Of a DNA stretch of 36,487 nucleotides, positions 1,897 to 35,125 are shown one piece after another. Source of the stretch: a virus (lineage: Duplodnaviria; Heunggongvirae; Uroviricota; Caudoviricetes); IMG/VR virus record IMGVR_UViG_2718217885_000004, positions 1 to 36,487 of that record; one strand, written 5' to 3'. How positions within the stretch are numbered: the first letter of the stretch is position 1; each line of letters begins with the position of its first letter. Under the pieces are notes generated by a model. That model worked only from the letters and a program-made list of their open reading frames with translations. It had not been told where the DNA came from and searched no databases. Position numbers and translations under genes: made by a program.

Positions 1897-2910
1897 TTAC
1901 TCTACTGTGGACACTGTGTGGACACTCTCGGCCTCAGTACCACCTCTTAACGGATTAAGAGAAATGGCGTCCTGAAGGTACTCTGGCGCAAAATGAGCGT
2001 AAACCATAGTTTGCTCAATCCGTGTGTGACCTAGTATCCGTTGTAGCGTGATAATACTTCCTCCATTAATCATGAAATGAGTGGCAAAGCTGTGCCTTAG
2101 TGCATGTGTGGCTTGCCCCATTGGCAAATCCGGTTTTATTGCTTTCATTGTTCGTCTGAAGCGAGGGTAATCAGCATCAGGGAATAAAAAACCTCGTTTG
2201 TTATCCGCGATCATTTTGGCAACAGCCTCTGAGATCGGGACGGTGCGTGGTTTGTTTGTTTTCGTTTTAACAAACGTGACGCGGTTATGGATGATATTTT
2301 CTGCTTTCAAACGAGCTGCTTCTCCCCAACGTGCTCCAGTACTCAGGCAAAGAATCGCAATCTTTTTGTTGTCGCCGTCAAGAGCCGCAAGCAGTAAGGC
2401 AATTTCTTCCTGCGTGAGATAGCCTGTGTCTGGTTTTTCCTCCTTAAGCCTTTTTGTCCCTCTGATAGGGTGCTCACCAAAGAATAACTCCGCTTCAATC
2501 AGGGCTGTAAACATGCCGCTAATACATGTCAAATCACGATTGATACTCGAAGGTTTAATACCCTGGCTTCTTCGGGTGGCGCAGTACTGGCTGATAAGCG
2601 ATTTCGTAATTTGAAATGCGCATGGGTCATTCGTTATTTTTGTGAAGATTTCAATTTTTCCAAGATTAGATTTCCCATGCTCTTCGTGTTTACCCTTTAA
2701 ATCCCACCAGATCTGTGTCAGCTCCGACAGACGTCGCTTGTCTGTTGGTTTTGATAGCCATTCTTTATTGTGGTGGTTGTACAACGTGTATTTCTCGAAA
2801 GCGACAGCTTCGCTTTTCTTATCAAACTTCCTACGGATGCGTTTTCCATTACGTCCAGTAGGGCGGATGTCCACTTCATATCGACCATCATCGAGTTTTT
2901 TGATTGCCAT
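1897..2910 (-). CDS. int: Tyrosine integrase, P2 Int-like, 337 aa
   Basis: C-terminal catalytic signature HALRHSFATHF...LGHTRIEQTMVYAH (R..H-x-x-R...Y). Adjacent to the att core. Length equals P2 Int. Confidence 0.9.
   Translation of the reverse strand: MAIKKLDDGRYEVDIRPTGRNGKRIRRKFDKKSEAVAFEKYTLYNHHNKEWLSKPTDKRRLSELTQIWWDLKGKHEEHGKSNLGKIEIFTKITNDPCAFQITKSLISQYCATRRSQGIKPSSINRDLTCISGMFTALIEAELFFGEHPIRGTKRLKEEKPDTGYLTQEEIALLLAALDGDNKKIAILCLSTGARWGEAARLKAENIIHNRVTFVKTKTNKPRTVPISEAVAKMIADNKRGFLFPDADYPRFRRTMKAIKPDLPMGQATHALRHSFATHFMINGGSIITLQRILGHTRIEQTMVYAHFAPEYLQDAISLNPLRGGTEAESVHTVSTVE
1906..1926. promoter_or_regulatory. Candidate Int arm-type binding sites (P' arm): two direct repeats tgtggacact with 11-bp period
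   Basis: Direct repeat seen in sequence about 90 bp from the core, overlapping the 3' end of int. A similar TGTGG(A/T)C pair with the same 11-bp period occurs at the other prophage end. Confidence 0.4.
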
Positions 2911-3025
2911 CAGAAAACCCTCCGAGTGGTGTGTTTTTTTGCGACTACTAATCGCTTTTTTCGTGGTGGCTGAAATTTAGCCACCAATAGTAGGCACTTG
3001 TAATGAATATATTCACGATGAATTG

Positions 3026-3325
3026 TTAACCAGTCTTTTGACCGGAGTGGGGCGACGTTGTTTCGTTTTGCCCAAAGTGTGCGAGAGCGGGCGCAATTTG
3101 CCCGGACTCAGGAGCGATCTGGTTGGTCATGAACCATAAAGTGTATTTGGTGAATTGTGGGGTCTGCAGGATGTTCATCATGACATCTGTTGGAGGTGTT
3201 GAACGACCACTTTCATAGTAACTCAGCGTGCCATACGGAACCCCTGTTAAATCAGCAAGTTGTTGTCTGCTCAAATACTCTGATTTTCGCATTAAGACTA
3301 TCTTCTCGCTTATCGTGTTTGACAT
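3026..3325 (-). CDS. C: Immunity repressor, P2 C-like, 99 aa
   Basis: HTH segment LSRQQLADLTGVPYGTLSYYESG. Divergent from cox across a short control region. 99 aa as in P2 C. Confidence 0.8.
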   Translation of the reverse strand: MSNTISEKIVLMRKSEYLSRQQLADLTGVPYGTLSYYESGRSTPPTDVMMNILQTPQFTKYTLWFMTNQIAPESGQIAPALAHFGQNETTSPHSGQKTG

Positions 3326-3439
3326 GGTGTTTAGATCTCAATAGTATTTAGTTTAGATGTAGATTGTTTAGTGCTTGGATGTGGGCACTAAAAGGCATTA
3401 TAAGGCATTAAACGCAATTCATGAGGGCTAGAGGACGAC
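3326..3439. promoter_or_regulatory. Early lysis-lysogeny switch region (divergent Pc/Pe promoters and operator)
   Basis: 114-bp AT-rich spacer between divergent C and cox. Contains direct repeats (tttag three times; agatgtag/ggatgtgg; aggcatta twice). Exact promoter and operator positions not determined. Confidence 0.5.
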
Positions 3440-3715
3440 ATGAGCAAGCAAGTAACACTCATGACTGATGCGATTCCTTATCAGGAGTTCGCAAAACTAA
3501 TAGGAAAATCGACAGGAGCGGTTCGTCGGATGATCGATAAAGGAAAGCTGCCTGTAATTGATATGACCGATCCACAATCAGCTTCAGGTCGTGCAGGTGA
3601 ATATTGGGTATACCTTCCGGCATGGAATAACGGACTAAAACTGGCTTATGAAAGCCGTCCTAAAGAGATTCGTGACGGCTGGTTGATGTGGTTAGGTCTC
3701 GGTGAACCACGTTAA
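3440..3715 (+). CDS. cox: Cox-like excisionase / early transcriptional regulator, 91 aa
   Basis: First gene of the rightward early operon opposite C. RBS gagga upstream. 91 aa as in P2 Cox. Confidence 0.75.
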   Translation: MSKQVTLMTDAIPYQEFAKLIGKSTGAVRRMIDKGKLPVIDMTDPQSASGRAGEYWVYLPAWNNGLKLAYESRPKEIRDGWLMWLGLGEPR

Positions 3716-3725
3716 GGAGAATCGT

Positions 3726-3896
3726 ATGAATGAGCCTCGTTGTATTGCTCAGTTATTGCGTAACGAAAGCCCCAGGGCGATTGACTTCACCATCACCCAC
3801 GGTAAGGGGCGTAAGGGAATCATTATCCGCACCAAAAAACAGAGTCCGTTAAAAAAGGCTCTGACCTTTCTGAAAAGCCGGAGGGTCTGGAAATGA
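3726..3896 (+). CDS. Small early-operon protein, 56 aa (P2 orf78-like)
   Basis: ATG at 3726 with aaggag RBS. Stop overlaps the B start (ATGA). The track ORF 3702-3896 starts at an upstream GTG. Confidence 0.5.
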   Translation: MNEPRCIAQLLRNESPRAIDFTITHGKGRKGIIIRTKKQSPLKKALTFLKSRRVWK

Positions 3897-4393
3897 CAGT
3901 GATGACGCTCAATCTCGTCGAAAAACAGCCAGCAGCTATGCGCCGGATAATTGGTAAGCATCTTGCCGTCCCTCGCTGGCAGGATACATGTGATTATTAT
4001 AATCAGATGATGGAGCGCGAACGGCTAACAGTTTGCTTTCATGCGCAGTTAAAACAACGTCACGCAACGATGCGTTTTGAAGAAATGAACGACGTCGAAC
4101 GTGAACGGCTGGTTTGTGCAATTGATGAACTGCGTGGGGCATTCTCAAAACGCCGTCAGGTTGGCGCAAGTGAGTATGCATATATTAGTTTTTTAACCGT
4201 CAGTCAGCGCCGTACTTTATTTATGCACGCACGACTGACAGAAAAAGAATTTAACCAGCCATACTGGCGAATTAATGAAGAATCATGTTACTGGCGTGAT
4301 GCTTTATTCCGTGCATTACGTGAATTATTCAGCCTGTTTGAGTATGCGCCGACAATTCTGACGTCGGTAAAACCAGAGCAATATCTGCATTAA
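3893..4393 (+). CDS. B: Replication protein B-like, 166 aa
   Basis: Position after cox and 166-aa length match P2 B. RBS ggaggg upstream. Confidence 0.65.
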   Translation: MTVMTLNLVEKQPAAMRRIIGKHLAVPRWQDTCDYYNQMMERERLTVCFHAQLKQRHATMRFEEMNDVERERLVCAIDELRGAFSKRRQVGASEYAYISFLTVSQRRTLFMHARLTEKEFNQPYWRINEESCYWRDALFRALRELFSLFEYAPTILTSVKPEQYLH

Positions 4394-4456
4394 GTAATTA
4401 ACCAGAGTTTTTAACGCACTTAATTGTGCGGGGCTTCTTTTTGCCTGGAGAAAGTC

Positions 4457-4681
4457 ATGCATACAGTTTCTGAAAATCAGTGCGGTATATACGCATTACT
4501 GCTGCAACAGGCCAGAACCGAAGCACAGGCCGACGCTGCGACGCGCTTTTCTTCTCATCTTGACGCCATGATTCGCCACATCACAAAGGCGGAGTTATCC
4601 CGCGTGGAGATAGTCGAGCTGCTCAGTCAGGAGTCGGAAAAATTTCACAATATCGGATTGTCTCGCGGGGAGGTACTTTGA
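4457..4681 (+). CDS. Small early protein, 74 aa (P2 orf80-like)
   Basis: ATG at 4457 with ggagaaag RBS. Translationally coupled to the next ORF (ATGA overlap). Confidence 0.5.
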
Positions 4682-4983
4682 TGTCTTGTTCTCGTTCGGT
4701 TGTATTACTGAATAACGCCTTAAAAATCGCCGTTATGAAAAATGGTGATTTGTCTCTTATTCAACTTGGTATTGATAAAGAGAAGCGCGAAATAACTGAA
4801 TCTGTTATCGCAATTTATCAGAGTGAATTAAACCTCCTGTCTGATGTGGTCAATTTACTTGTTAAACGCGCTGTATTCCACAAGCAAGTTTCCTCAGTGG
4901 ATGAACTGACAAAATTAATGACAGAACTCGCCAGTTATTGCGCTGATGAATTTAAGAAGCTGAACGACAAAAGGAGCTGGTAA
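4681..4983 (+). CDS. Small early protein, 100 aa (P2 orf81-like)
   Basis: ATG at 4681 with ggggagg RBS. Overlaps neighbouring ORFs on both sides. Confidence 0.5.
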   Translation: MSCSRSVVLLNNALKIAVMKNGDLSLIQLGIDKEKREITESVIAIYQSELNLLSDVVNLLVKRAVFHKQVSSVDELTKLMTELASYCADEFKKLNDKRSW

Positions 4984-5207
4984 TGCCGGACAACGTAGAT
5001 TTTATTCAGGAACAACAGGCTGAATTACTGGAGCGCCAGATTAACGCGGCAAGGGTAAAACATTGCTGTGCTTCTGCGCTGGTTTGCGAAGAGTGTGACG
5101 CGCCAATACCTGCTGCCCGTCGTGCGGCTTATCCGTCAGCCACGCGTTGTGTTTCCTGTCAGTCAGTCTTTGAAGCAAAAAACAAACATTACCGGAGAAC
5201 GGCATGA
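4983..5207 (+). CDS. TraR/DksA-type C4 zinc-finger protein, 74 aa (P2 orf82-like)
   Basis: CEEC-x17-CVSC cysteine pattern. Sits in the coupled early operon. Confidence 0.6.
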   Translation: MPDNVDFIQEQQAELLERQINAARVKHCCASALVCEECDAPIPAARRAAYPSATRCVSCQSVFEAKNKHYRRTA

Positions 5208-5479: not shown

Positions 5480-7742
5480 AGCCTCCGGGCGTTTTGTCCC
5501 TCCGTCAGCATTTGCCGCAGGCACCGGTAAGACGTTTGCCGGTGCTTATGCATGGAACGCGCCACGCGAGGCTGTCGGGCGCGAAAGACCCCTTACACGT
5601 GATGAGATGCGTCAGGTGCAAGGTGTTTTATCCACGATTAACCGCCTGCCTTACTTTTTGCGCTCGCTGTTTACTTCACGCTATGACTACATCCGGCGCA
5701 ATAAAAGCCCGGTGCACGGGTTTTATTTCCTCACATCCACTTTTCAGCGTCGTTTATGGCCGCGCATTGAGCGTGTGAATCAGCGCCATGAAATGAACAC
5801 CGACGCGTCGTTGCTGTTTCTGGCAGAGCGCGACCAGTATGCGCGTCTGCCGGGGATGAATGACAAGGAGCTGAAAAAGTTTGCCGCCCGTATCTCATCG
5901 CAGCTTTTCATGATGTATGAGGAACTCTGCGATGCCTGGGTGGATGCGCATGGCGAAAAAGAATCGCTGTTTACGGATGAGGCGCAGGATCATCTGTATG
6001 GTCATGTTGCTGGCGCTGCACGTGCTTTCAATATTTCCCCGCTCTACTGGAAAAAATACCGTAAAGGACAGATAACCACGAGGCAGGCATATTCTGCCAT
6101 TGCCCGTCTGTTTAACGATGAGTGGTGGACTCATCAGCTTAAAGGCCAGCGTATGCGCTGGCATGAGGCGTTACTGATTGCTGTCGGGGAGGTGAATAAA
6201 GACCGTTCTCCTTATGCCAGTAAACATGCCATTCGTGATGTACGTGCACGCCGCCAGGCAAATCTGGAATTTCTTAAATCGTGTGACCTTGAAAACAGGG
6301 AAACCGGCGAGCGCATCGACCTTATCAGTAAGGTGATGGGCAGTATTTCTAATCCTGAAATTCGCCGGATGGAGCTGATGAACACCATTGCCGGTATTGA
6401 GCGTTACGCCGCCGCAGAGGGTGATGTGGGGATGTTTATCACGCTGACCGCGCCGTCAAAGTATCACCCGACACGTCAGGTCGGAAAAGGCGAAAGTAAA
6501 ACCGTTCAGCTTAATCACGGCTGGAACGATGAGGCATTTAATCCAAAGGATGCGCAGCGTTATCTCTGCCGTATCTGGAGCCTGATGCGGACGGCATTCA
6601 AGGATAATGATTTACAGGTCTACGGTTTGCGTGTCGTTGAGCCACACCACGACGGAACGCCGCACTGGCATATGATGCTTTTTTGTAATCCACGCCAGCG
6701 TAACCAGATTATCGAAATCATGCGTCGCTATGCGCTCAAAGAGGATGGTGACGAAAGAGGCGCTGCGCGAAACCGTTTTCAGGCAAAACACCTTAACCGG
6801 GGCGGTGCTGCGGGATATATCGCGAAATACATCTCAAAAAACATCGACGGCTATGCACTGGATGGTCAGCTCGATAACGATACTGGCAGGCCGCTGAAAG
6901 ATACTGCCGCGGCTGTTACCGCATGGGCGTCAACGTGGCGCATTCCGCAATTTAAAACGGTTGGCCTGCCGACAATGGGGGCTTACCGTGAACTACGCAA
7001 ATTGCCTCGCGGCGTCAGCATTGCTGATGAGTTTGACGAACGCGTCGAGGCTGCACGCGCCGCCGCAGACAGTGGTGATTTTGCGTTGTATATCAGCGCG
7101 CAGGGTGGGGCAAATGTCCCGCGCGATTGTCAGACTGTCAGGGTCGCCCGTAGCCCGTCGGATGACGTTAACGAGTATGAGGAAGAAGTCGAGAGAGTGG
7201 TCGGCATTTACGCGCCGCATCTCGGCGCGCGTCATATTCATATCACCAGAACGACGGACTGGCGCATTGTGCCGAAAGTTCCGGTCGTTGAGCCTTTGAC
7301 TTTAAAAAGCGGCATCGCCGCGCCTCGGAGTCCTGTCAATAACTGTGGAAAGCTCACCGGTGGTGATACTTCGTTACCGGCTCCCACGCCTTCTGAGCAC
7401 GCCGCAGCAGTGCTTAATCTGGTTGATGACGGTGTTATCGAATGGAATGACCCGGAGGTCGTGAGGGCGCTCAGAAGCGCATTAAAACACGGCCTGAGAA
7501 GACCAAACCGTCAGCAAAGAAACGGAAGCCCGTTAAAACCGCATGAAATAGCGCCATCGGCCAGACTTACCCGGTCGGAACGAATGCAAATTACCCGTAT
7601 CCGCGTTGACCTTGCTCAGAACGGTATCAGGCCGCAGCGATGGGAGCTTGAGGCGCTGGCGCGTGGGGCAACCGTAAATTATGACGGGAAAAAATTCACG
7701 TATCCGATTGCTGAAGAGTGGTCGGGATTTTCCTCAAACTAA
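5469..7742 (+). CDS. A: Rolling-circle replication initiator, P2 gpA-like (HUH endonuclease)
   Basis: HUH motif in GTPHWHMMLF and tyrosine motif YIAKYISK. Likely ATG at 5469 (MAVKASG); the track ORF starts at an upstream TTG at 5427. Confidence 0.85.
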   Translation: MAVKASGRFVPPSAFAAGTGKTFAGAYAWNAPREAVGRERPLTRDEMRQVQGVLSTINRLPYFLRSLFTSRYDYIRRNKSPVHGFYFLTSTFQRRLWPRIERVNQRHEMNTDASLLFLAERDQYARLPGMNDKELKKFAARISSQLFMMYEELCDAWVDAHGEKESLFTDEAQDHLYGHVAGAARAFNISPLYWKKYRKGQITTRQAYSAIARLFNDEWWTHQLKGQRMRWHEALLIAVGEVNKDRSPYASKHAIRDVRARRQANLEFLKSCDLENRETGERIDLISKVMGSISNPEIRRMELMNTIAGIERYAAAEGDVGMFITLTAPSKYHPTRQVGKGESKTVQLNHGWNDEAFNPKDAQRYLCRIWSLMRTAFKDNDLQVYGLRVVEPHHDGTPHWHMMLFCNPRQRNQIIEIMRRYALKEDGDERGAARNRFQAKHLNRGGAAGYIAKYISKNIDGYALDGQLDNDTGRPLKDTAAAVTAWASTWRIPQFKTVGLPTMGAYRELRKLPRGVSIADEFDERVEAARAAADSGDFALYISAQGGANVPRDCQTVRVARSPSDDVNEYEEEVERVVGIYAPHLGARHIHITRTTDWRIVPKVPVVEPLTLKSGIAAPRSPVNNCGKLTGGDTSLPAPTPSEHAAAVLNLVDDGVIEWNDPEVVRALRSALKHGLRRPNRQQRNGSPLKPHEIAPSARLTRSERMQITRIRVDLAQNGIRPQRWELEALARGATVNYDGKKFTYPIAEEWSGFSSN

Positions 7743-7914
7743 TAATGATGTTTGACAAAGAGATGTTGATGAGACTAAAAATTTTATTTGTCTGTATAAC
7801 CATTCGGTTAGAGTACAATAGTTCCGAGTGATAGGAATACAAATAATGACTAAGTTTTCAATATGCGATTGTTATGGGTTGAATTAAAGGTAAATAACTA
7901 TGTTAAATAATATA

Positions 7915-7947
7915 GGGCAAGAGGGGGTTCTTGCCCTTTGTTTATTT
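7915..7947. terminator. Candidate bidirectional intrinsic terminator between convergent A operon and SIR2 cargo gene
   Basis: Hairpin gggcaaga / tcttgccc with loop ggggt, followed by tttgtttattt on plus and an A/T-rich run on minus. Confidence 0.5.
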
Positions 7948-10540
7948 AAGCGGCGATTTCAATGTTGCTTTTATATTTTAAGAGGGCGTTTTTGGGAACT
8001 GCTGGCCAGGCTGAGTATCTATAATAGTTCATATAATCTTTCTCTATCAGTGTTTTTAGCTGTTTGTTAGCTTGAACTTCATCACCAAGTAAAAAGAATG
8101 CACACATGGCCGTAGCCCCTTTTGAATTGTTATGTGCTAAAACTGAATTTATCTCATTCTTTTTAATGTCTTGCCCTTCTTTTTTCTTGGCAACTTCTCT
8201 ATTGATTATTAAAACATCTTTTTCCCTGTAATCTTTAATTTTTTCAAGGTTTTCATTAGCGATTTTAATTGTTTCTTTATAGTTTCCTGCAAGAAGATTG
8301 GTATAAGATTTTCCTAAGATATAATCACTAAACCCGTAACCTTTTTCATAAGCTTCATCAAGAAGAACTATCGCTTTATCATAATCGCCGTTTAAAGATG
8401 CAATATCAGATTTTAATTTTAAAATGGTGATTTCTGATTTGTTTCTTGGCAGGCTATCAATAAACTCCTCTGCCAATTTGATGTTGTTTTTATCAATTAG
8501 TAATATGTCTACAATACTGTTTGTATGATTATTTTTCCACGGGCAGTTCATGGCTTCTTTGACTAATTCAATACCAGCTTTGATGTCCCTGTTGCAGCCT
8601 ATCTCATATCGAGCTTTAAATATAATGAAAGGAGCAATTCTTGCAATGTCGCTCTCTTCTTCATATTTATCAATAAAGCCTTTCATCAGGTTGGGAGTGT
8701 TTTCATCGAAGTCTGTTTCAAATAAAGATAGATGCAGTTGTGTTAAATATTTTAATATGTTTCTTTTTTTATTTTTTGATGATGTTTTGTAAGCGTTGGA
8801 TAATGTATCTATGCATAATAATGTATCTTCTTTCTTTTGCAATGCGCAGGTGAAATCAGTATATAACGACAAATATGTATCGTGAGTAGGGTTGACCTCT
8901 TTTATTTTGTCAAGAAGTTCTTGTATTAATTTATTACAATCTTTCTTATCATGGCTTGATTGATGTTTTGTCTTTATTGCGTCATATTTTATTCTCCATG
9001 CAATATTATCCAGATCACTGCTTTGGAGTAAGCTTTTATCAATTAAATCATGTATTTCATCAAAGGTTATTAATTCTTCATCATTATTTTCTAGATGTAG
9101 AATAGCAATTCTGCTTAAATGATTCTTAAGATTTATGCTATATGGGAATTTTTCAAGCAATCCCTTAAGGTAATGTATTTTTGCCTTTAGATCTGTGAAT
9201 ATGTTTGCCCTTGAAAGGGCGTAATTTATATTAAATTCATCAAGAGCTATAAGATTATCACTAATTTCTAATGCTGACTTTGTGTCTTTTTGTTCTTCTT
9301 TTATTTCAATTAGCCTACGCAGATATTTAGACTTTATATTGTCACTATCAGCGTTATTGATTAATTCATTCAGTTTTGACTCTGCGTTTAAATAATTTTT
9401 ATTTCTAATGAGGTTGTCAATGTATAACAAATTCTTAAAATCTTCTTCGGGGATCTTTTGATCGTCTAAATCACTTTGGGATAGCTCGTTTATTAATGAC
9501 GATATGTCATGTGTTAGAGTGTGTTTTTTTAATTTTGAGAGATCAGATTTGATAATGCCATTTTTAGATAAGTTGTACTCATCTGTTATAAAGTTTTGGA
9601 TCATCATCTCTCTTTTTGTGGATTTTTGATTCCCTCCAAAAGAGAGTGCGCAGCCTAATTCTAGGGCTAGTTCTGCCATCAATTCATCAAAACCTTCTAT
9701 TTCTACCCAATAAACTTTATCTTGACCTAGAAGCCTAATAAGTTCTGGTGGGATGGAGTCATTTTTTCTAACGCACCAGTATACTCCATTTCTTAGGTAA
9801 TCGTCCTGTTTTAATAAATGTTTTAAAACATCCATGATAGAGCTGTCATTGCCAGCATAACCAACAAAAATAATCCCGTATTCTTTAGTGAATTCAGTTA
9901 GTTTTTCACGAGTGTTACCTTCTAATGACTCGGTTTCTTTTAAAGAGCTTTTTATGCTATCAAATAAATAATCACCATGTAATTTTATTATTTTTGGCCT
10001 TGAAGAAGTAATTGAGACGCCTTTAATTGATGAATCATGTGCACATAATAATGGTCTGTCAGAAGAAAATTGATAAAATGCTTCATTTATTAAATCGTCA
10101 AAATTTGTTGTGAAGACAGTATCAAAAAACTTTGATTCAAATAGTTCAACGAGATAAGCATATCCAATTGAAGGTAATTTTTTGTCTACTTGAAGCTCAA
10201 CAAATCTTCTGCGTTGAGATGGAAGATCAAATTTCTTTTCAAAAAGAGATGAGTATTCATTGTTTGGGTCGTACCAGACTGGATGGTTTTTGGATAGCCA
10301 TTTTTTAGCTTCTTCGGCATCGACATATTCTTGATTGGATAGTCTTGTGTATATCTCTTCTCTCCATTTCGCTACTAACTCTTGACCAGTTTTTATTCCA
10401 GATGTAACGGATGCGCCAGCACCAAGAAAAAGTGAATAGTTAGGTGATGTACCTGATTTGATTTTTATATAATCAGCTAAATCTTTAATGGTTCTTTTTT
10501 TGGCAACCAGTTGTTCCTTGGTAGTATCACGATCAGACAT
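7946..10540 (-). CDS. SIR2-like (sirtuin-fold NADase) domain protein with long helical C-terminal region, 864 aa; candidate defense-associated sirtuin
   Basis: N-terminal roughly 300 aa carry four SIR2-like hallmarks in order: LFLGAGAS, TTNFDDL, KIIKLHGD, FVGYAGNDSS. C-terminal roughly 550 aa are K/N/D/L-rich with no Walker motif. GGAGGG RBS upstream of ATG at 10538-10540. Very AT-rich. Occupies the A-to-cos variable locus. Confidence 0.8.
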   Translation of the reverse strand: MSDRDTTKEQLVAKKRTIKDLADYIKIKSGTSPNYSLFLGAGASVTSGIKTGQELVAKWREEIYTRLSNQEYVDAEEAKKWLSKNHPVWYDPNNEYSSLFEKKFDLPSQRRRFVELQVDKKLPSIGYAYLVELFESKFFDTVFTTNFDDLINEAFYQFSSDRPLLCAHDSSIKGVSITSSRPKIIKLHGDYLFDSIKSSLKETESLEGNTREKLTEFTKEYGIIFVGYAGNDSSIMDVLKHLLKQDDYLRNGVYWCVRKNDSIPPELIRLLGQDKVYWVEIEGFDELMAELALELGCALSFGGNQKSTKREMMIQNFITDEYNLSKNGIIKSDLSKLKKHTLTHDISSLINELSQSDLDDQKIPEEDFKNLLYIDNLIRNKNYLNAESKLNELINNADSDNIKSKYLRRLIEIKEEQKDTKSALEISDNLIALDEFNINYALSRANIFTDLKAKIHYLKGLLEKFPYSINLKNHLSRIAILHLENNDEELITFDEIHDLIDKSLLQSSDLDNIAWRIKYDAIKTKHQSSHDKKDCNKLIQELLDKIKEVNPTHDTYLSLYTDFTCALQKKEDTLLCIDTLSNAYKTSSKNKKRNILKYLTQLHLSLFETDFDENTPNLMKGFIDKYEEESDIARIAPFIIFKARYEIGCNRDIKAGIELVKEAMNCPWKNNHTNSIVDILLIDKNNIKLAEEFIDSLPRNKSEITILKLKSDIASLNGDYDKAIVLLDEAYEKGYGFSDYILGKSYTNLLAGNYKETIKIANENLEKIKDYREKDVLIINREVAKKKEGQDIKKNEINSVLAHNNSKGATAMCAFFLLGDEVQANKQLKTLIEKDYMNYYRYSAWPAVPKNALLKYKSNIEIAA

Positions 10541-10852
10541 TTTCCCTCCATAAATTATGTGTGAGAAGTGAGAATAATCCTAGGTGTGGTTATTTTTACA
10601 TGAAATTCAATGGGTTTTCGTTTTTCTTACATGCGTTTTGTGACTGAGATCAAGCTATGAGGGAGGAATGTTCTTTTATTGTTCGCTAGAGGCTAATTGG
10701 CTAATAAGCTTTTACTAATCGTTTATGATGTACCATAGCGTTGAATGATTTTGCATGCATTTGTCAGATGTTTACTGATGTTGTTATGTCAGAGCTGGTG
10801 CGCTTTAGGTTATTTCATGCAACTGCATTAAAACCACCACATGAAGCGGGCG

Positions 10853-10871
10853 GGCGAGGCGGGGAAAGCAC
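10853..10871. other. cos site, 19-nt cohesive-end sequence ggcgaggcggggaaagcac
   Basis: Matches the P2 cohesive-end sequence as I recall it. Lies in the GC-rich spacer just upstream of portal gene Q, as expected for P2. Confidence 0.55.
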
Positions 10872-11038
10872 TGCGCGCTGGCGGTGGTGCTGATTTTATT
10901 TTTTCAGCGTCTGAGCGCGTCGTGATGGCGTTTAGATTGTTAGCCGGGGCGTTTGTGTCTGCGGGCTGTTTTGTGCGGTGGTGAGCGTGTGAGGGCGTGA
11001 TGGCGGGTTGTAAAAAAGCCGCCCGCAGGCGGCGATGT

Positions 11039-20316: not shown

Positions 20317-21561
20317 CTAAATCCAGCGGAGGTAGAATAGTAAGTAAGGATCTCTGATGTCTAATACATCGCTTTCTTGATCCCACTCGATAATACTGCT
20401 ATTTGCAGCATCGTTGGCAATAGCAGTTGAGTGCTGACATGCACTGGTTATACTAGAACCGCTTGGGCTATCGCCATGACATAACGAGGTCACTCGAGAT
20501 ACTAAGTCAGAATAACGAAATGTCAGCGTCGGAGGATTAGAAGCAATGGCTTTTAATAAAAAGACATAAACATCGCCTTGCCAGCCATCTTTTGATATAT
20601 ATGATTTTCTATCAGAACCACGCACTTTAGGTCCTTCGCGCATTTTATCCACAATCGTGCTGTAATCTGCTGACTGAAGTGTACGTTTGCACACTCTTTG
20701 CAATGTGGCAATATCTTTTTGATATTTTATTGAAGTATCAGAAGTCTCTCTGACATTCATTTCAAAACAAGAGTTTAAGCATAAATATTGCATTAGTTGT
20801 GGTGAGCCTGCGGACTCTTTTACTAACTCACTTATAACTTCATCAGAGGCATCTATATTGAGTAGTTTGAATCCTTTCTGGGCAATAATTTTTAAGGTTG
20901 ATTCATCCCAATAATCAAAATCAATATTAAATATCCGACCTCGTAAGTCAGAGTTACCCCGAAGAACATCATCAGAATGATATGGCACTGATGCACAAAT
21001 AAATTTGCAGCCATTAGCTATGGCATCTTTTATTTGTCGTGATAGTTCGGCTTGAGCTTCTTTAGCAATATAGTGAAAATCATCGATAAAGATAACATAA
21101 TCTGTGTTTGCGATTTCTCGCTTCATTAGTTGAAAGAGATCTATCGCAAATGATTCTGAGGTTTGATCTGCTGTACTATAACCAGCGGATGCAGACCCTT
21201 TAAGACTACCTTTTGCTAAAATTACACCAGCTTGGGCAGATAATTCTCCTGTACCTGAAAATGATGAGGTGCCAGTTTTACTTTGAACTTGGGTTACTGG
21301 TACACCAAGTATGTCGAAAACGCGCTTCCATAAATCATTAGCAGATTGAACCCCTGCTCCAGTTACTTCGATTAGCCTCTGGGTTCCAAGTACTTTCTTA
21401 ACAAAGACAGTTTTTCCTGATTTTGATGGGCCAGAGATAGAAATCAGCATGGTGCCCATCTCAAGTGTATCGATTAACTGTTGCTGTTTGGATACTAGGT
21501 GATCCTCAACCAGTGTGTGGTTGGGATAACCGCCTGGGATAAAAACCTCTGTCGCCTTCAT
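20317..21561 (-). CDS. P-loop NTPase of uncertain family, 414 aa; cargo gene between S and V
   Basis: Walker A GPSKSGKT and Walker B-like YVIFIDDFHY. Antisense to the late operon. Lower GC than neighbours. No adjacent partner ORF. Confidence 0.7.
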   Translation of the reverse strand: MKATEVFIPGGYPNHTLVEDHLVSKQQQLIDTLEMGTMLISISGPSKSGKTVFVKKVLGTQRLIEVTGAGVQSANDLWKRVFDILGVPVTQVQSKTGTSSFSGTGELSAQAGVILAKGSLKGSASAGYSTADQTSESFAIDLFQLMKREIANTDYVIFIDDFHYIAKEAQAELSRQIKDAIANGCKFICASVPYHSDDVLRGNSDLRGRIFNIDFDYWDESTLKIIAQKGFKLLNIDASDEVISELVKESAGSPQLMQYLCLNSCFEMNVRETSDTSIKYQKDIATLQRVCKRTLQSADYSTIVDKMREGPKVRGSDRKSYISKDGWQGDVYVFLLKAIASNPPTLTFRYSDLVSRVTSLCHGDSPSGSSITSACQHSTAIANDAANSSIIEWDQESDVLDIRDPYLLFYLRWI

Positions 21562-27070: not shown

Positions 27071-27850
27071 TTAAAATATCCAACTGATAAATCCACCTGA
27101 ATACTTTTCACTAATTTTGATTGCATAAAGATCATGAAGAGTTATAAATAAATCATTATCTTCTTTGAAAATTAACTCCTCATATTCTGCCATTATCAAA
27201 TTATGCTGTGTTGTTAGTTTAGATATGTTATCTATTTCACTGGCAAGCATGGATTTGTTTACATTGGTGTGTGGATCCATGGCAATATATTTCCGCATCA
27301 ATGGAATTAGTTGATCAGGGTCTATATTTTTTGCATTTTCCTTTGCTTTTTTTTGTCTTTCTGAATAGATGGAGTTAATTGTGTCAGTGTGTTTTTTCGC
27401 CAGTCTCTTAAACTCTGGATATGAACCAGTAACTAATGCAAGCTCTTCGTACTTAAGGAATAAATCGATATTGCATTTTTTTACCGTCATTTCAAGATCT
27501 TCAACTCTTTTTTTTAACTCTTCATTTGTTTTAATAAGAGACATCGGGAGAACTTCATAATGTTGTCCTAATTCTGAATCAGGGCTCATTGCCATATGTA
27601 CTATTTCATTATACATGAGCTGATAAGAAGCAGATAACTCTCCATACTTTAGAAATAGTTCATTATGTGAAGATGAACAAGAACTTTGTAATTTCATCAT
27701 TGGTCTAAAGTAATCCTTTATAAACTCCTCCTGAAGATCTTGGTCTTTTTTGTAGCTCTCTAGGATTCCAGCAAAAAGAAATGACCCTAAAGATATAGAG
27801 ATTATGGATATTAGCAATTGACTAAGGAATGATTGTGTTTCATTACTCAT
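27071..27850 (-). CDS. Membrane-anchored protein of unknown function, 259 aa; cargo gene between G and FI
   Basis: Single N-terminal transmembrane helix (LLISIISISLGSFLFAGIL) followed by a charged helical domain. Very AT-rich. Antisense to the late operons. Confidence 0.65.
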   Translation of the reverse strand: MSNETQSFLSQLLISIISISLGSFLFAGILESYKKDQDLQEEFIKDYFRPMMKLQSSCSSSHNELFLKYGELSASYQLMYNEIVHMAMSPDSELGQHYEVLPMSLIKTNEELKKRVEDLEMTVKKCNIDLFLKYEELALVTGSYPEFKRLAKKHTDTINSIYSERQKKAKENAKNIDPDQLIPLMRKYIAMDPHTNVNKSMLASEIDNISKLTTQHNLIMAEYEELIFKEDNDLFITLHDLYAIKISEKYSGGFISWIF

Positions 27851-34954: not shown

Positions 34955-34981
34955 AAAAAATAAGCCCGTGTAAGGGAGATT
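34955..34981. repeat. attR core, 27-bp direct repeat aaaaaataagcccgtgtaagggagatt
   Basis: Exact copy of 1791-1817; lies after the ogr terminator. Confidence 0.8.
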
Positions 34982-35125
34982 ACACAGGCTAAGGAGGTGG
35001 TTCCTGGTACAGCTAGCATTTTATGGGTTATGTTTTTCAGCGAAACGGATGATAACCTTAATAAATGCAGCTGTATGTGATCGGTTTCTAAGAATTTTCC
35101 ATCCGGGAAAAATAATCGAAATTAA

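What the first reader, a model, noticed from the sequence alone, without database searches (positions are those of the whole stretch)
7946..10540. SIR2-like NADase with a helical C-terminal domain in the A/cos variable locus: candidate single-gene abortive-infection system
The 864-aa product carries, in order, the four hallmarks of the defense-type SIR2-like domain: GAGAS, TTNFD (putative catalytic Asn), KLHGD (putative catalytic His) and GYAGND. The remaining roughly 550 residues are helical and low-complexity, with no Walker A and no second enzymatic motif. That rules out a STAND/Avs-type SIR2 fusion and fits a sensor domain. The gene is far more AT-rich than the prophage backbone, has its own strong RBS, and is transcribed antisense to the A operon. 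It sits where P2 carries the nonessential tin/old cargo. No partner ORF is present, so it would act alone, like defense-associated sirtuins that deplete NAD+ when the C-terminal domain recognises a phage protein.
Basis: partly seen in the sequence, partly recalled or inferred. Interest (0 to 1): 0.88.

Follow-up and report, generated by a model that had tools for sequence, protein, structure and literature searches.

The report
Prophage SIR2–TPR candidate phage-defence gene
A P2-like prophage of E. coli carries, in its known cargo hotspot, one gene that fuses an intact NAD-cleaving sirtuin-type domain to a long helical-repeat domain; it is very probably an untested relative of the known one-protein "defence-associated sirtuin" phage-defence systems, and a 2022 survey already listed it as a likely NADase.

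Summary
Window 7946..10540 (-) is an 864-aa ORF with GAGAS, TTNFD, KLHGD and GYAGND. It has 32% GC against 53-57% in the flanks, a GGAGG ribosome-binding site and a hairpin terminator. It sits alone between P2 gpA and cos/portal Q.

Residues ~30-295 are a SIR2_2 domain. Their closest relative is the SIR2 module of short-Argonaute (SPARSA) systems, and the experimentally defined catalytic Asn and His of that module align to N146 and H188, both invariant in 44 homologues. Residues ~365-856 fold, at high predicted confidence, as a TPR-like solenoid. It is not low-complexity, has no P-loop and has no second enzyme.

The protein does not match the PADLOC Dsr1, Dsr2, ThsA or SIR2-HerA models, and it has no APAZ domain and no pAgo, HerA or TIR partner. 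The gene travels as a singleton in other genera. Its C-terminal domain evolves about three times faster than the SIR2 domain, and two E. coli alleles recombine at the domain boundary.

The best reading is a single-protein, DSR-like NADase switched on when the TPR domain binds a phage protein. This is inferred, not shown.

Rousset et al. 2022 already list this protein as P2-hotspot system 60, "Likely a NADase", untested. It is a new variant of a known kind, of moderate interest.

The parts
7946..10540 (-). Complete 864-aa SIR2-TPR gene (WP_065275714.1 in E. coli GB089, annotated 'SIR2 family protein')
   Evidence: ORF list. 100% match to NZ_CP013663.1. Full-length match to PHROG 14359, function unknown. 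dN/dS 0.04-0.15 between alleles.
9656..10453 (-). SIR2 (SIR2_2/SIRim-type) Rossmann domain, aa ~30-295, carrying GAGAS, TTNFD, KLHGD and GYAGND
10103..10105 (-). Codon of Asn146 (TTNFD), predicted catalytic Asn
   Evidence: Aligns to GsSir2 N142, which is required for NADase activity (PMC11452484). Invariant in 44 homologues.
9977..9979 (-). Codon of His188 (KLHGD), predicted catalytic His
   Evidence: Aligns to GsSir2 H186. Invariant in 44 homologues.
9449..9655 (-). Helical linker, aa 296-364, partly shared with the region that follows SIR2 in Sir2-APAZ proteins
   Evidence: AF2 helices 308-319 and 328-355. PADLOC pAgo/Aga models align up to aa 352-381. An inter-allele recombination breakpoint lies near codon 300.
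7973..9448 (-). TPR-like alpha-solenoid, aa 365-856, about 24 helices; the putative sensor
10545..10549 (-). Shine-Dalgarno GGAGG, 4 nt upstream of the ATG
   Evidence: Read directly from the sequence. Purine-rich and conserved in four other alleles.
7914..7937 (.). Hairpin terminator shared by the convergent gpA and SIR2 transcripts
   Evidence: Terminator scan, both strands.
7743..10738 (.). Approximate extent of the AT-rich cargo insert in the gpA-cos hotspot
   Evidence: GC profile. Backbone identity with another allele's locus ends about 115 bp past cos, near 10738.
10853..10871 (+). P2-type cos cohesive-end sequence GGCGAGGCGGGGAAAGCAC (context, not part of the system)
   Evidence: One exact match, 0 expected by chance. 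The sequence was recalled from my own knowledge of P2.

Best explanation
The gene encodes a self-contained, one-protein anti-phage sensor-effector of the defence-associated-sirtuin type, carried as cargo by a P2-like prophage. The N-terminal SIR2 domain is an NAD+ glycohydrolase held inactive in uninfected lysogens. The C-terminal TPR-like solenoid binds a protein made by an infecting phage, most plausibly an abundant structural protein, as is the case for DSR2 (tail tube) and Dsr1 (major capsid). Binding releases or reorganises the SIR2 domains into an oligomer that positions His188 next to Asn146. NAD+ is then hydrolysed to ADP-ribose and nicotinamide, the cell's NAD+ pool collapses, and the phage cannot complete replication, with or without death of the host.

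Shown here: domain identities, intact catalytic residues, absence of an NTPase or a partner gene, hotspot location, purifying selection, faster evolution of the C-terminal domain, and recombination at the domain boundary.

Inferred only: NADase activity, activation by oligomerisation, a protein trigger, and protection or abortive infection.
For: SIR2 identity:
- Pfam SIR2_2 is above its gathering score.
- The best PADLOC hits are SIR2 modules of short-pAgo defence systems (2e-59), followed by candidate PDC-S65.
- The closest solved relative is the SPARSA Sir2-APAZ NADase.
- GsSir2 N142 and H186, shown experimentally to be needed for NAD+ hydrolysis after tetramerisation, align to N146 and H188, which are invariant across 44 homologues down to 38% identity.

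Sensor domain:
- The confident AF2 model has a ~490-residue TPR-like solenoid, with TPR matches by profile and by fold.
- There is no Walker A.
- The overall SIR2 plus solenoid layout retrieves DSR2 by Foldseek at E about 1e-8.

Modularity:
- SIR2 stays 64-95% identical while the C-terminal domain falls to 25-84%.
- dN/dS is 0.04 for SIR2 and 0.10-0.15 for the C-terminal domain.
- Alleles H6 and H8 are 98-100% identical up to codon ~300 and 84-94% after it.
- Viral contigs carry the same SIR2 module on a different, shorter C-terminus.

Stand-alone gene: it is the only shared gene between the P2 hotspot in E. coli and other P2-likes and the singleton insertions in Pectobacterium, Aeromonas, Vibrio and Cedecea.

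Defence context: the gpA-Q locus is an experimentally validated defence hotspot, and its curators listed this protein as 'Likely a NADase'. Relatives are cargo next to the integrase in a Vibrio 186-like phage and a Haloferax pleolipovirus.
Against: - No experiment on this family was found in the searchable literature. Rousset et al. did not clone it.
- Outside phages, the four contexts inspected are housekeeping neighbourhoods, not defence islands.
- No promoter could be assigned, so expression in the lysogen is assumed.
- The Tyr168 contact that SPARSA uses for tetramerisation aligns to Ile172 here, so the activation geometry may differ.
- Dsr1 in B. subtilis depleted NAD+ only transiently and without growth arrest, so 'abortive infection' does not follow automatically.
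- The C-terminal domain shows no detectable sequence relationship to the Dsr1/Avs7 or DSR2 sensors, so the trigger cannot be transferred from them.
Confidence: 0.65

Rival explanations
1. It is a defence NADase, but the TPR domain does not bind a phage protein directly. It guards a host component, or needs a host cofactor encoded elsewhere, and fires when phage infection alters that component.
For: SeAvs7, whose TPR sensor is shared with Dsr1, co-purified with host EF-Tu as well as the phage capsid protein. TPR domains are generic protein-protein scaffolds. The family sits among housekeeping genes in several genera. Purifying selection on the C-terminal domain (dN/dS about 0.1) is compatible with a conserved host ligand.
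Against: The C-terminal domain diverges to 25-29% identity within Gammaproteobacteria and is swapped by recombination between alleles in one species. That pattern fits a fast-moving phage target better than a conserved host protein. No conserved neighbour gene exists.
Confidence: 0.15
2. The SIR2 domain does not deplete NAD+. It uses NAD+ to modify a specific target (ADP-ribosylation or deacylation of a protein or nucleic acid), as a prophage lysogenic-conversion or regulatory factor rather than an abortive-infection effector.
Against: The sequence falls in the SIR2_2/SIRim branch, whose characterised bacterial members (ThsA, DSR1/2, SIR2-HerA, SPARSA, Avs5) are NADases. The nearest relative by a wide margin is the SPARSA NADase. 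The SIR2 region has only two cysteines, C166 and C256, so it lacks the four-Cys zinc module of canonical deacylases. Its location is a defence hotspot.
Confidence: 0.08
3. It is a passenger gene with no benefit to host or phage under normal conditions: a decaying or silent AT-rich insert that H-NS probably silences.
For: GC is very low (0.32) and no recognisable promoter was found. It occurs in only 45 of 5426 complete E. coli genomes. One carrier prophage has a frameshifted gpA.
Against: The 864-aa frame is intact in every allele examined, with dN/dS 0.04-0.15 at dS up to more than 1.5. Full-length homologues of ~860-890 aa occur across Enterobacterales, Vibrio, Aeromonas and Shewanella, with invariant catalytic residues. 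The gene holds the same hotspot in P2-like phages whose portal is only 75-81% identical.
Confidence: 0.05

Closest known systems
P2 gpA-gpQ hotspot system no. 60 'SIR2_2' of Rousset et al. 2022 (PMC9122126, Table S5B)
   Same: It is the same protein family at the same locus. The listed sequence (MSDRDTTKEQLVAKKRTVKDL...) differs from this one by scattered substitutions. It has 68 occurrences and the curators' comment 'Likely a NADase'.
   Different: Nothing structural. That entry is a catalogue line without domain analysis of the C-terminus and without any experiment. The only lone SIR2 the authors cloned (pFR88, from the P4 hotspot) is a different, ThsA/PDC-S25-like protein.
SPARSA (short pAgo with Sir2-APAZ; Geobacter sulfurreducens, PDB 8jkz/8in8/8y80)
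   Same: It is the closest SIR2 module by sequence (1e-23, or 3.5e-29 with the profile), by PADLOC models (2e-59) and by Foldseek. The catalytic N142 and H186 are conserved as N146 and H188, and homology runs a little past the Rossmann core, to about aa 350-380.
   Different: There is no APAZ domain and no Argonaute gene. A ~490-residue TPR solenoid takes their place, so a protein ligand would replace guide-RNA/target-DNA sensing. The Tyr168 tetramer contact is not conserved (Ile172).
DSR2 (Bacillus subtilis defence-associated sirtuin 2)
   Same: It is also a single protein with an N-terminal SIR2 NADase and a C-terminal alpha-solenoid sensor. The whole-length Foldseek match has E about 1e-8. 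Its mechanism (sensor binds the phage tail tube, then NAD+ is depleted) is the template for the proposal here.
   Different: There is no hit to the PADLOC Dsr2 model at E<=1 (the model is present in the library). Identity is 12-14% and TM about 0.2. The protein is 864 aa against ~1000 aa, the SIR2 subtype differs, the repeats are TPR-like rather than HEAT-like, and the trigger is unknown.
Dsr1 (E. coli WP_029488749.1; SIR2 plus the TPR sensor shared with Avs7)
   Same: It is a single protein with a SIR2 effector and a TPR-repeat sensor and no NTPase. EcDsr1 is triggered by a phage major capsid protein and depends on its effector.
   Different: There is no hit to the PADLOC Dsr1 model (1227 positions) at E<=1. 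The protein is about 360 residues shorter. A C-terminal-domain-only search of 1.84 billion representatives found only 124 proteins, all 929 aa or shorter, and those scanned carry SIR2 or no Pfam effector domain; none of the STAND or other-effector proteins that share the Avs7/Dsr1 sensor appeared.
Avs5 / SIR2-STAND
   Different: There is no NTPase: no Walker A, no AAA/NACHT Pfam hit, and no room for one between aa 296 and 364.

Membership tests
SIR2_2 / 'SIRim' branch of the sirtuin superfamily | Significant match to the SIR2_2 profile and a Rossmann-type SIR2 fold | tested here: met
SIR2_2 / 'SIRim' branch of the sirtuin superfamily | Catalytic Asn and His present | tested here: met
   N146 and H188 align to GsSir2 N142 and H186 and are invariant in 44 sequences.
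SIR2_2 / 'SIRim' branch of the sirtuin superfamily | NAD+ glycohydrolase activity | not testable with these tools
   This needs an enzyme assay or LC-MS of infected cells.
Rousset 2022 P2-hotspot system 60 (SIR2_2) | Same protein sequence family located between gpA and gpQ/cos of a P2-like prophage | tested here: met
   Three 12-17-residue peptides of this protein occur in the Table S5B entry, and its N-terminus is near-identical. The gene order gpA - gene - cos - Q is confirmed.
SPARSA / short pAgo with Sir2-APAZ | SIR2 module of the pAgo-associated clade | tested here: met
   The best PADLOC hits are Aga_SIR2 models at 2e-59 to 4e-37. The best PDB hit is the SPARSA Sir2.
SPARSA / short pAgo with Sir2-APAZ | APAZ domain C-terminal to SIR2 | tested here: not met
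   Alignments to the 524-1030-position models stop at aa 292-381. The rest of the protein is a TPR solenoid.
SPARSA / short pAgo with Sir2-APAZ | Adjacent short Argonaute gene | tested here: not met
   The neighbours are gpA and cos/portal. No ORF longer than 56 aa lies in the gaps. No pAgo is present in five other contexts.
DSR2 | Match to the Dsr2 family profile | tested here: not met
   There is no PADLOC Dsr2 hit at E<=1. The model PDLC02184 is in the library.
DSR2 | SIR2 plus alpha-solenoid single-chain architecture | tested here: inconclusive
   Foldseek gives E about 1e-8 over about 950 columns, but TM is only 0.2 and identity 12-14%. The layout is the same; homology of the sensor is not shown.
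DSR2 | Activation by phage tail tube protein | not testable with these tools
   This needs co-expression or binding assays.
Dsr1 | Match to the Dsr1 family profile (~1200 aa) | tested here: not met
   There is no PADLOC Dsr1 hit at E<=1. The model PDLC04166, with 1227 positions, is in the library. The protein is 864 aa.
Dsr1 | Sensor homologous to the Avs7 TPR sensor, which is shared with STAND and other effectors | tested here: not met
   A phmmer search with the C-terminal domain alone against 1.84 billion representatives returned 124 proteins, none longer than 929 aa. Those scanned carry SIR2 or no Pfam effector domain, and no STAND protein appeared. A structural comparison with EcDsr1 could not be run.
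Avs5 / SIR2-STAND | Central STAND NTPase with a Walker A motif | tested here: not met
   No Walker A, strict or loose. No NTPase Pfam hit. The AF2 model goes from the Rossmann domain through a linker directly into helical repeats.
Thoeris ThsA | SLOG or Macro ligand-binding domain and a TIR (ThsB) partner | tested here: not met
   No ThsA model hit. The C-terminus is TPR. No TIR gene is nearby.
SIR2-HerA (Nezha) | Adjacent HerA ATPase gene | tested here: not met
   No such ORF exists in the 3-kb insert.
PADLOC candidate PDC-S65 | Full-length match to the 592-position model | tested here: inconclusive
   The match at 7e-26 covers only model positions 32-341, i.e. the SIR2 part. The 630-680-aa viral relatives give the same partial pattern.

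The most novel reading that the evidence does not exclude
This family (~860-890 aa, Gammaproteobacteria and their temperate phages) would be a third, independent class of single-protein defence sirtuin. Here the NADase module of Argonaute-guided SPARSA systems has been re-wired from nucleic-acid sensing (APAZ plus pAgo) to protein sensing through a private TPR solenoid. That solenoid recognises a phage component not yet known as a trigger, and its specificity is reshuffled among P2 prophages by recombination exactly at the effector/sensor junction.
Probability: 0.35. Interest if true: 0.55.

Novelty: new variant of a known kind. Interest (0 to 1): 0.38.

Why it matters
If it is active, it adds a validated system to the P2 cos-proximal defence hotspot. 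It would also show that the SPARSA-type SIR2 effector works without an Argonaute, driven instead by a repeat-protein sensor. Together with the 630-680-aa relatives that carry another C-terminus, and the allele mosaics that break at the domain boundary, this would be a clean natural example of mixing effector and sensor modules. It would also supply a set of naturally diverged sensors (25-95% identical) on a near-constant effector for mapping trigger specificity. A further question is how a P2-like prophage avoids setting off its own sensor during induction. None of this would overturn current views: single-protein SIR2 plus repeat-sensor NADases are established, and this gene was already flagged as a likely NADase.

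Tried and rejected
- **NCBIfam** gave no hit, and the full-length PHROG match has unknown function, so neither adds functional information.
- **Getting an EcDsr1 sequence** for a direct comparison failed. Gao 2020 is not held, and the Avs7/Dsr1 preprint has no supplements held. The PADLOC Dsr1/Dsr2 models were used instead, after a control showed that they are in the library.
- **Searching for other effectors on the same C-terminal domain** found only SIR2 or truncated proteins. Effector swapping on this sensor is therefore not shown; only sensor swapping on this effector is shown.
- **Promoter search** by consensus scan and by five-allele alignment found conserved AT-rich blocks but no convincing -35/-10 pair.
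- **Rfam** found nothing near the gene.
- **Small ORFs in the gaps** were rejected as partners: 7900..8070 (+), 10741..10893 (+) and 10841..10984 (+), of 47-56 aa. They overlap the terminator or cos backbone, and no counterpart is called in three of the four other-genus loci. The 74-aa ORF called next to the P0004 allele is absent here.
- **A second profile search of the 5.8-billion-protein database** with the C-terminal domain was considered and not run, because generic TPR hits and same-family members would have filled the list.
- **Literature searches** for PDC-S65, Dsr3 or SIR2-TPR names found nothing relevant.
Full report
**Observation**

The stated ORF exists: 7946..10540 on the minus strand, ATG start, 864 aa. 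The four motifs occur once each and in the stated order: GAGAS at residue 40, TTNFD at 144, KLHGD at 186 and GYAGND at 227. Neither a strict nor a loose Walker A pattern is present.

The gene has 32% GC (GC3 27%), against 53% for gpA, 53% for Q and 57% for P. GGAGG lies 4 nt before the ATG. A G+C-rich hairpin at 7914-7937, usable on both strands, follows the stop codon.

The window is identical to a P2-like prophage of E. coli GB089, where the product is annotated only as 'SIR2 family protein'. The gene lies between the replication gene gpA (ends at 7742, + strand) and the P2 cos sequence (10853-10871), followed by portal Q and terminase P on the minus strand. It therefore occupies the tin/old position of P2.

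- The gene is convergent with gpA and does not overlap it, so it is not antisense.
- The C-terminal part is not low-complexity (see below).

**What the protein is**

*SIR2 domain.* Pfam places a SIR2_2 domain at residues 141-261, at 56.6 bits against a cut-off of 24.5. In PADLOC, the strongest matches by far are the SIR2 modules of short-Argonaute systems: Aga_SIR2 models at 2e-59 to 4e-37, and a SIR2-APAZ-pAgo fusion model at 4e-46. They cover only residues ~27-381. Candidate PDC-S65 follows at 7e-26, again on the SIR2 part only.

There is no hit at E<=1 to the Dsr1, Dsr2, ThsA or SIR2-HerA models. A control scan of a different SIR2 protein showed that those models are present in the library.

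The only solved relative found by sequence is the Sir2-APAZ subunit of the Geobacter SPARSA complex, at 1e-23, or 3.5e-29 with a family profile. In that alignment, GsSir2 N142 and H186 pair with N146 and H188 here. Those two residues are needed for NAD+ hydrolysis once the Sir2 domains tetramerise (PMC11452484). Both are invariant in an alignment of 44 homologues that reaches 38% identity.

*Structure model.* An AlphaFold2 model built on that alignment has mean pLDDT 85. It shows three parts:
- a Rossmann-type domain, residues ~30-295;
- a helical linker, residues ~296-364;
- about 24 regularly paired helices, residues 365-856, with pLDDT mostly 88-96.

Foldseek against the PDB ranks SPARSA Sir2 first. 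It then ranks dozens of DSR2 chains over the whole length at E about 1e-8, though with TM only 0.2.

The protein is therefore SIR2 (pAgo-associated subtype) plus linker plus a TPR-like solenoid. It has no NTPase and no second catalytic domain.

**Does it act alone?**

Within the ~3.0-kb AT-rich insert (about 7743-10738) there is no other ORF above 56 aa.

All five E. coli alleles examined, at 100, 95, 92, 87 and 77% nucleotide identity, lie between gpA and the portal gene. One of these loci also carries two unrelated small ORFs.

In IMG/VR, 12 of 40 related viral loci are P2-like, with the gene between Q and gpA. These include phages whose portal is only 75-81% identical.

In Pectobacterium the gene sits alone beside smpB. 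In Aeromonas, Vibrio and Cedecea it is a singleton between housekeeping genes.

Nothing is conserved next to it, so it is a self-contained unit.

**Evolutionary behaviour**

Across the family, the SIR2 domain keeps 64-95% identity to the window protein, while the solenoid falls to 25-84%.

Between E. coli alleles, dN/dS is about 0.04 for SIR2 and 0.10-0.15 for the solenoid, with dS up to more than 1.5. Both parts are under purifying selection, so this is a working gene, and the solenoid changes about three times faster.

Alleles H6 and H8 are 98-100% identical up to about codon 300 and only 84-94% identical after it. This places a recombination junction at the effector/sensor boundary.

The solenoid alone, searched against 1.84 billion representative proteins, finds only 124 relatives. 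Nearly all are ~860-890 aa with the same layout, and the odd-sized ones scanned are SIR2-bearing or truncated.

Conversely, 18 viral contigs encode 630-680-aa proteins with the same SIR2 module and a different C-terminus. Relatives also sit next to the integrase of a Vibrio 186-like phage and of a Haloferax pleolipovirus.

The picture is a conserved effector with exchangeable, fast-evolving C-terminal domains, as expected for an immune sensor-effector.

**Most likely mechanism**

By analogy with characterised relatives, the TPR solenoid is the sensor and the SIR2 domain the effector. Binding of a phage-made protein would relieve inhibition and drive SIR2 oligomerisation. NAD+ would then be cleaved to ADPR and nicotinamide, and phage replication would fail.

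The supports are as follows:
- SPARSA shows that this SIR2 subtype is an oligomerisation-gated NADase.
- DSR2 shows that a single chain with SIR2 plus a solenoid can sense a tail tube protein.
- Dsr1 shows that SIR2 plus a TPR sensor can sense a major capsid protein.
- The gpA-Q locus is an experimentally validated defence hotspot.

Everything from 'binds a phage protein' onward is inference. The trigger is unknown. The SPARSA tetramer contact Tyr168 is Ile here. Whether the outcome is abortive infection or a transient NAD+ dip, as reported for DSR1 in B. subtilis, cannot be told. I put about 0.65 on this explanation.

The rivals are a guard or host-cofactor version of the same system (0.15), a target-modifying sirtuin rather than an NAD+ depleter (0.08), and a silent passenger gene (0.05).

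**Comparison with what is known**

The gene is not new to the literature as a sequence. Rousset et al. 2022 list it in Table S5B as P2-hotspot system 60: 'SIR2_2', 68 occurrences, 'Likely a NADase'. They did not clone it. The lone SIR2 they did clone (pFR88, from the P4 hotspot) is a different, ThsA/PDC-S25-like protein.

No paper in the searchable library reports an experiment on this family.

It works like the DSR proteins but fails the membership tests for Dsr1 and Dsr2: no profile match, different length, and a private sensor. It shares its effector with SPARSA but lacks APAZ and Argonaute. It lacks the NTPase of Avs5, the SLOG/Macro domain and TIR partner of Thoeris, and the HerA partner of SIR2-HerA.

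I therefore file it as a new variant of a known kind: a single-protein SIR2 plus repeat-sensor NADase.

**Verdict**

Interest is moderate (0.38). It is a good, cheap experimental target with a natural series of sensor variants, but it does not challenge current understanding.

Noticed in passing
window 20317-21561 (-): A second AT-rich cargo gene in the same prophage (GC about 0.36-0.41), 414 aa. It has weak AAA_22/AAA_16 Pfam hits and a solid match to PADLOC candidate defence family PDC-S59 (1.5e-31). It lies between the lysis/tail-completion block and the baseplate genes, the P2 orf30 position (position recalled from my own knowledge of P2).
   Followed up: partly
window 27071-27850 (-): A third AT-rich minus-strand insert (GC about 0.32-0.34) encoding a 259-aa protein with no Pfam or PADLOC hit. 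It lies after the tail-fibre genes, where P2 carries Z/fun (position recalled from my own knowledge of P2). It may be another exclusion or defence cargo gene.
   Followed up: partly
window 34958-35043 (-): The CyaR/RyeE sRNA gene (Rfam, 100.7 bits) lies at the far end of the prophage. The other end abuts yegR/yegS. This marks the chromosomal insertion site.
   Followed up: no
L015 (NZ_CP055048.1) position 1; also hits H2-H4 and H14: In five complete E. coli genome records this gene sits at 2478-5072 or 2504-5084. In the one record checked, base 1 is the start of the P2 gpA replication gene. These assemblies seem to have been rotated automatically to a prophage replication gene instead of dnaA.
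   Followed up: partly
L015 4553-5285 (+): The 95%-identity allele's locus carries two extra small hypothetical ORFs (89 and 156 aa) between the SIR2-TPR gene and the portal gene. They are absent from the window, so hotspot content varies even among carriers of this gene.
   Followed up: no
L039-L057 (IMG/VR); L016 2977-4815; L017 2062-3729: Proteins of 555-680 aa share the same pAgo-type SIR2 module but have a different, shorter C-terminus. They occur in viral contigs, in a Vibrio 186-like temperate phage (between cI and int) and in a Haloferax pleolipovirus (annotated as a TPR protein). One of them (L057) aligns to a pAgo-fusion model up to position 511 and may retain an APAZ-like region.
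   Followed up: partly
L013 1-1271 (NZ_CP060979.1): In strain EC3, the gpA gene next to the 87%-identity allele is annotated as frameshifted. That prophage is probably defective, while its SIR2-TPR gene remains intact.
   Followed up: no
window 10560-10740 (-), alignment A3: The ~200 bp upstream of the start codon contain blocks conserved down to the 77%-identity allele (GAACAATAAAA, TGATCTnAnTCACAAAAnGC, TAnGATTAnTCTnACTT). They do not form a recognisable sigma-70 promoter, so the transcription signal and any regulation remain unexplained.
   Followed up: partly
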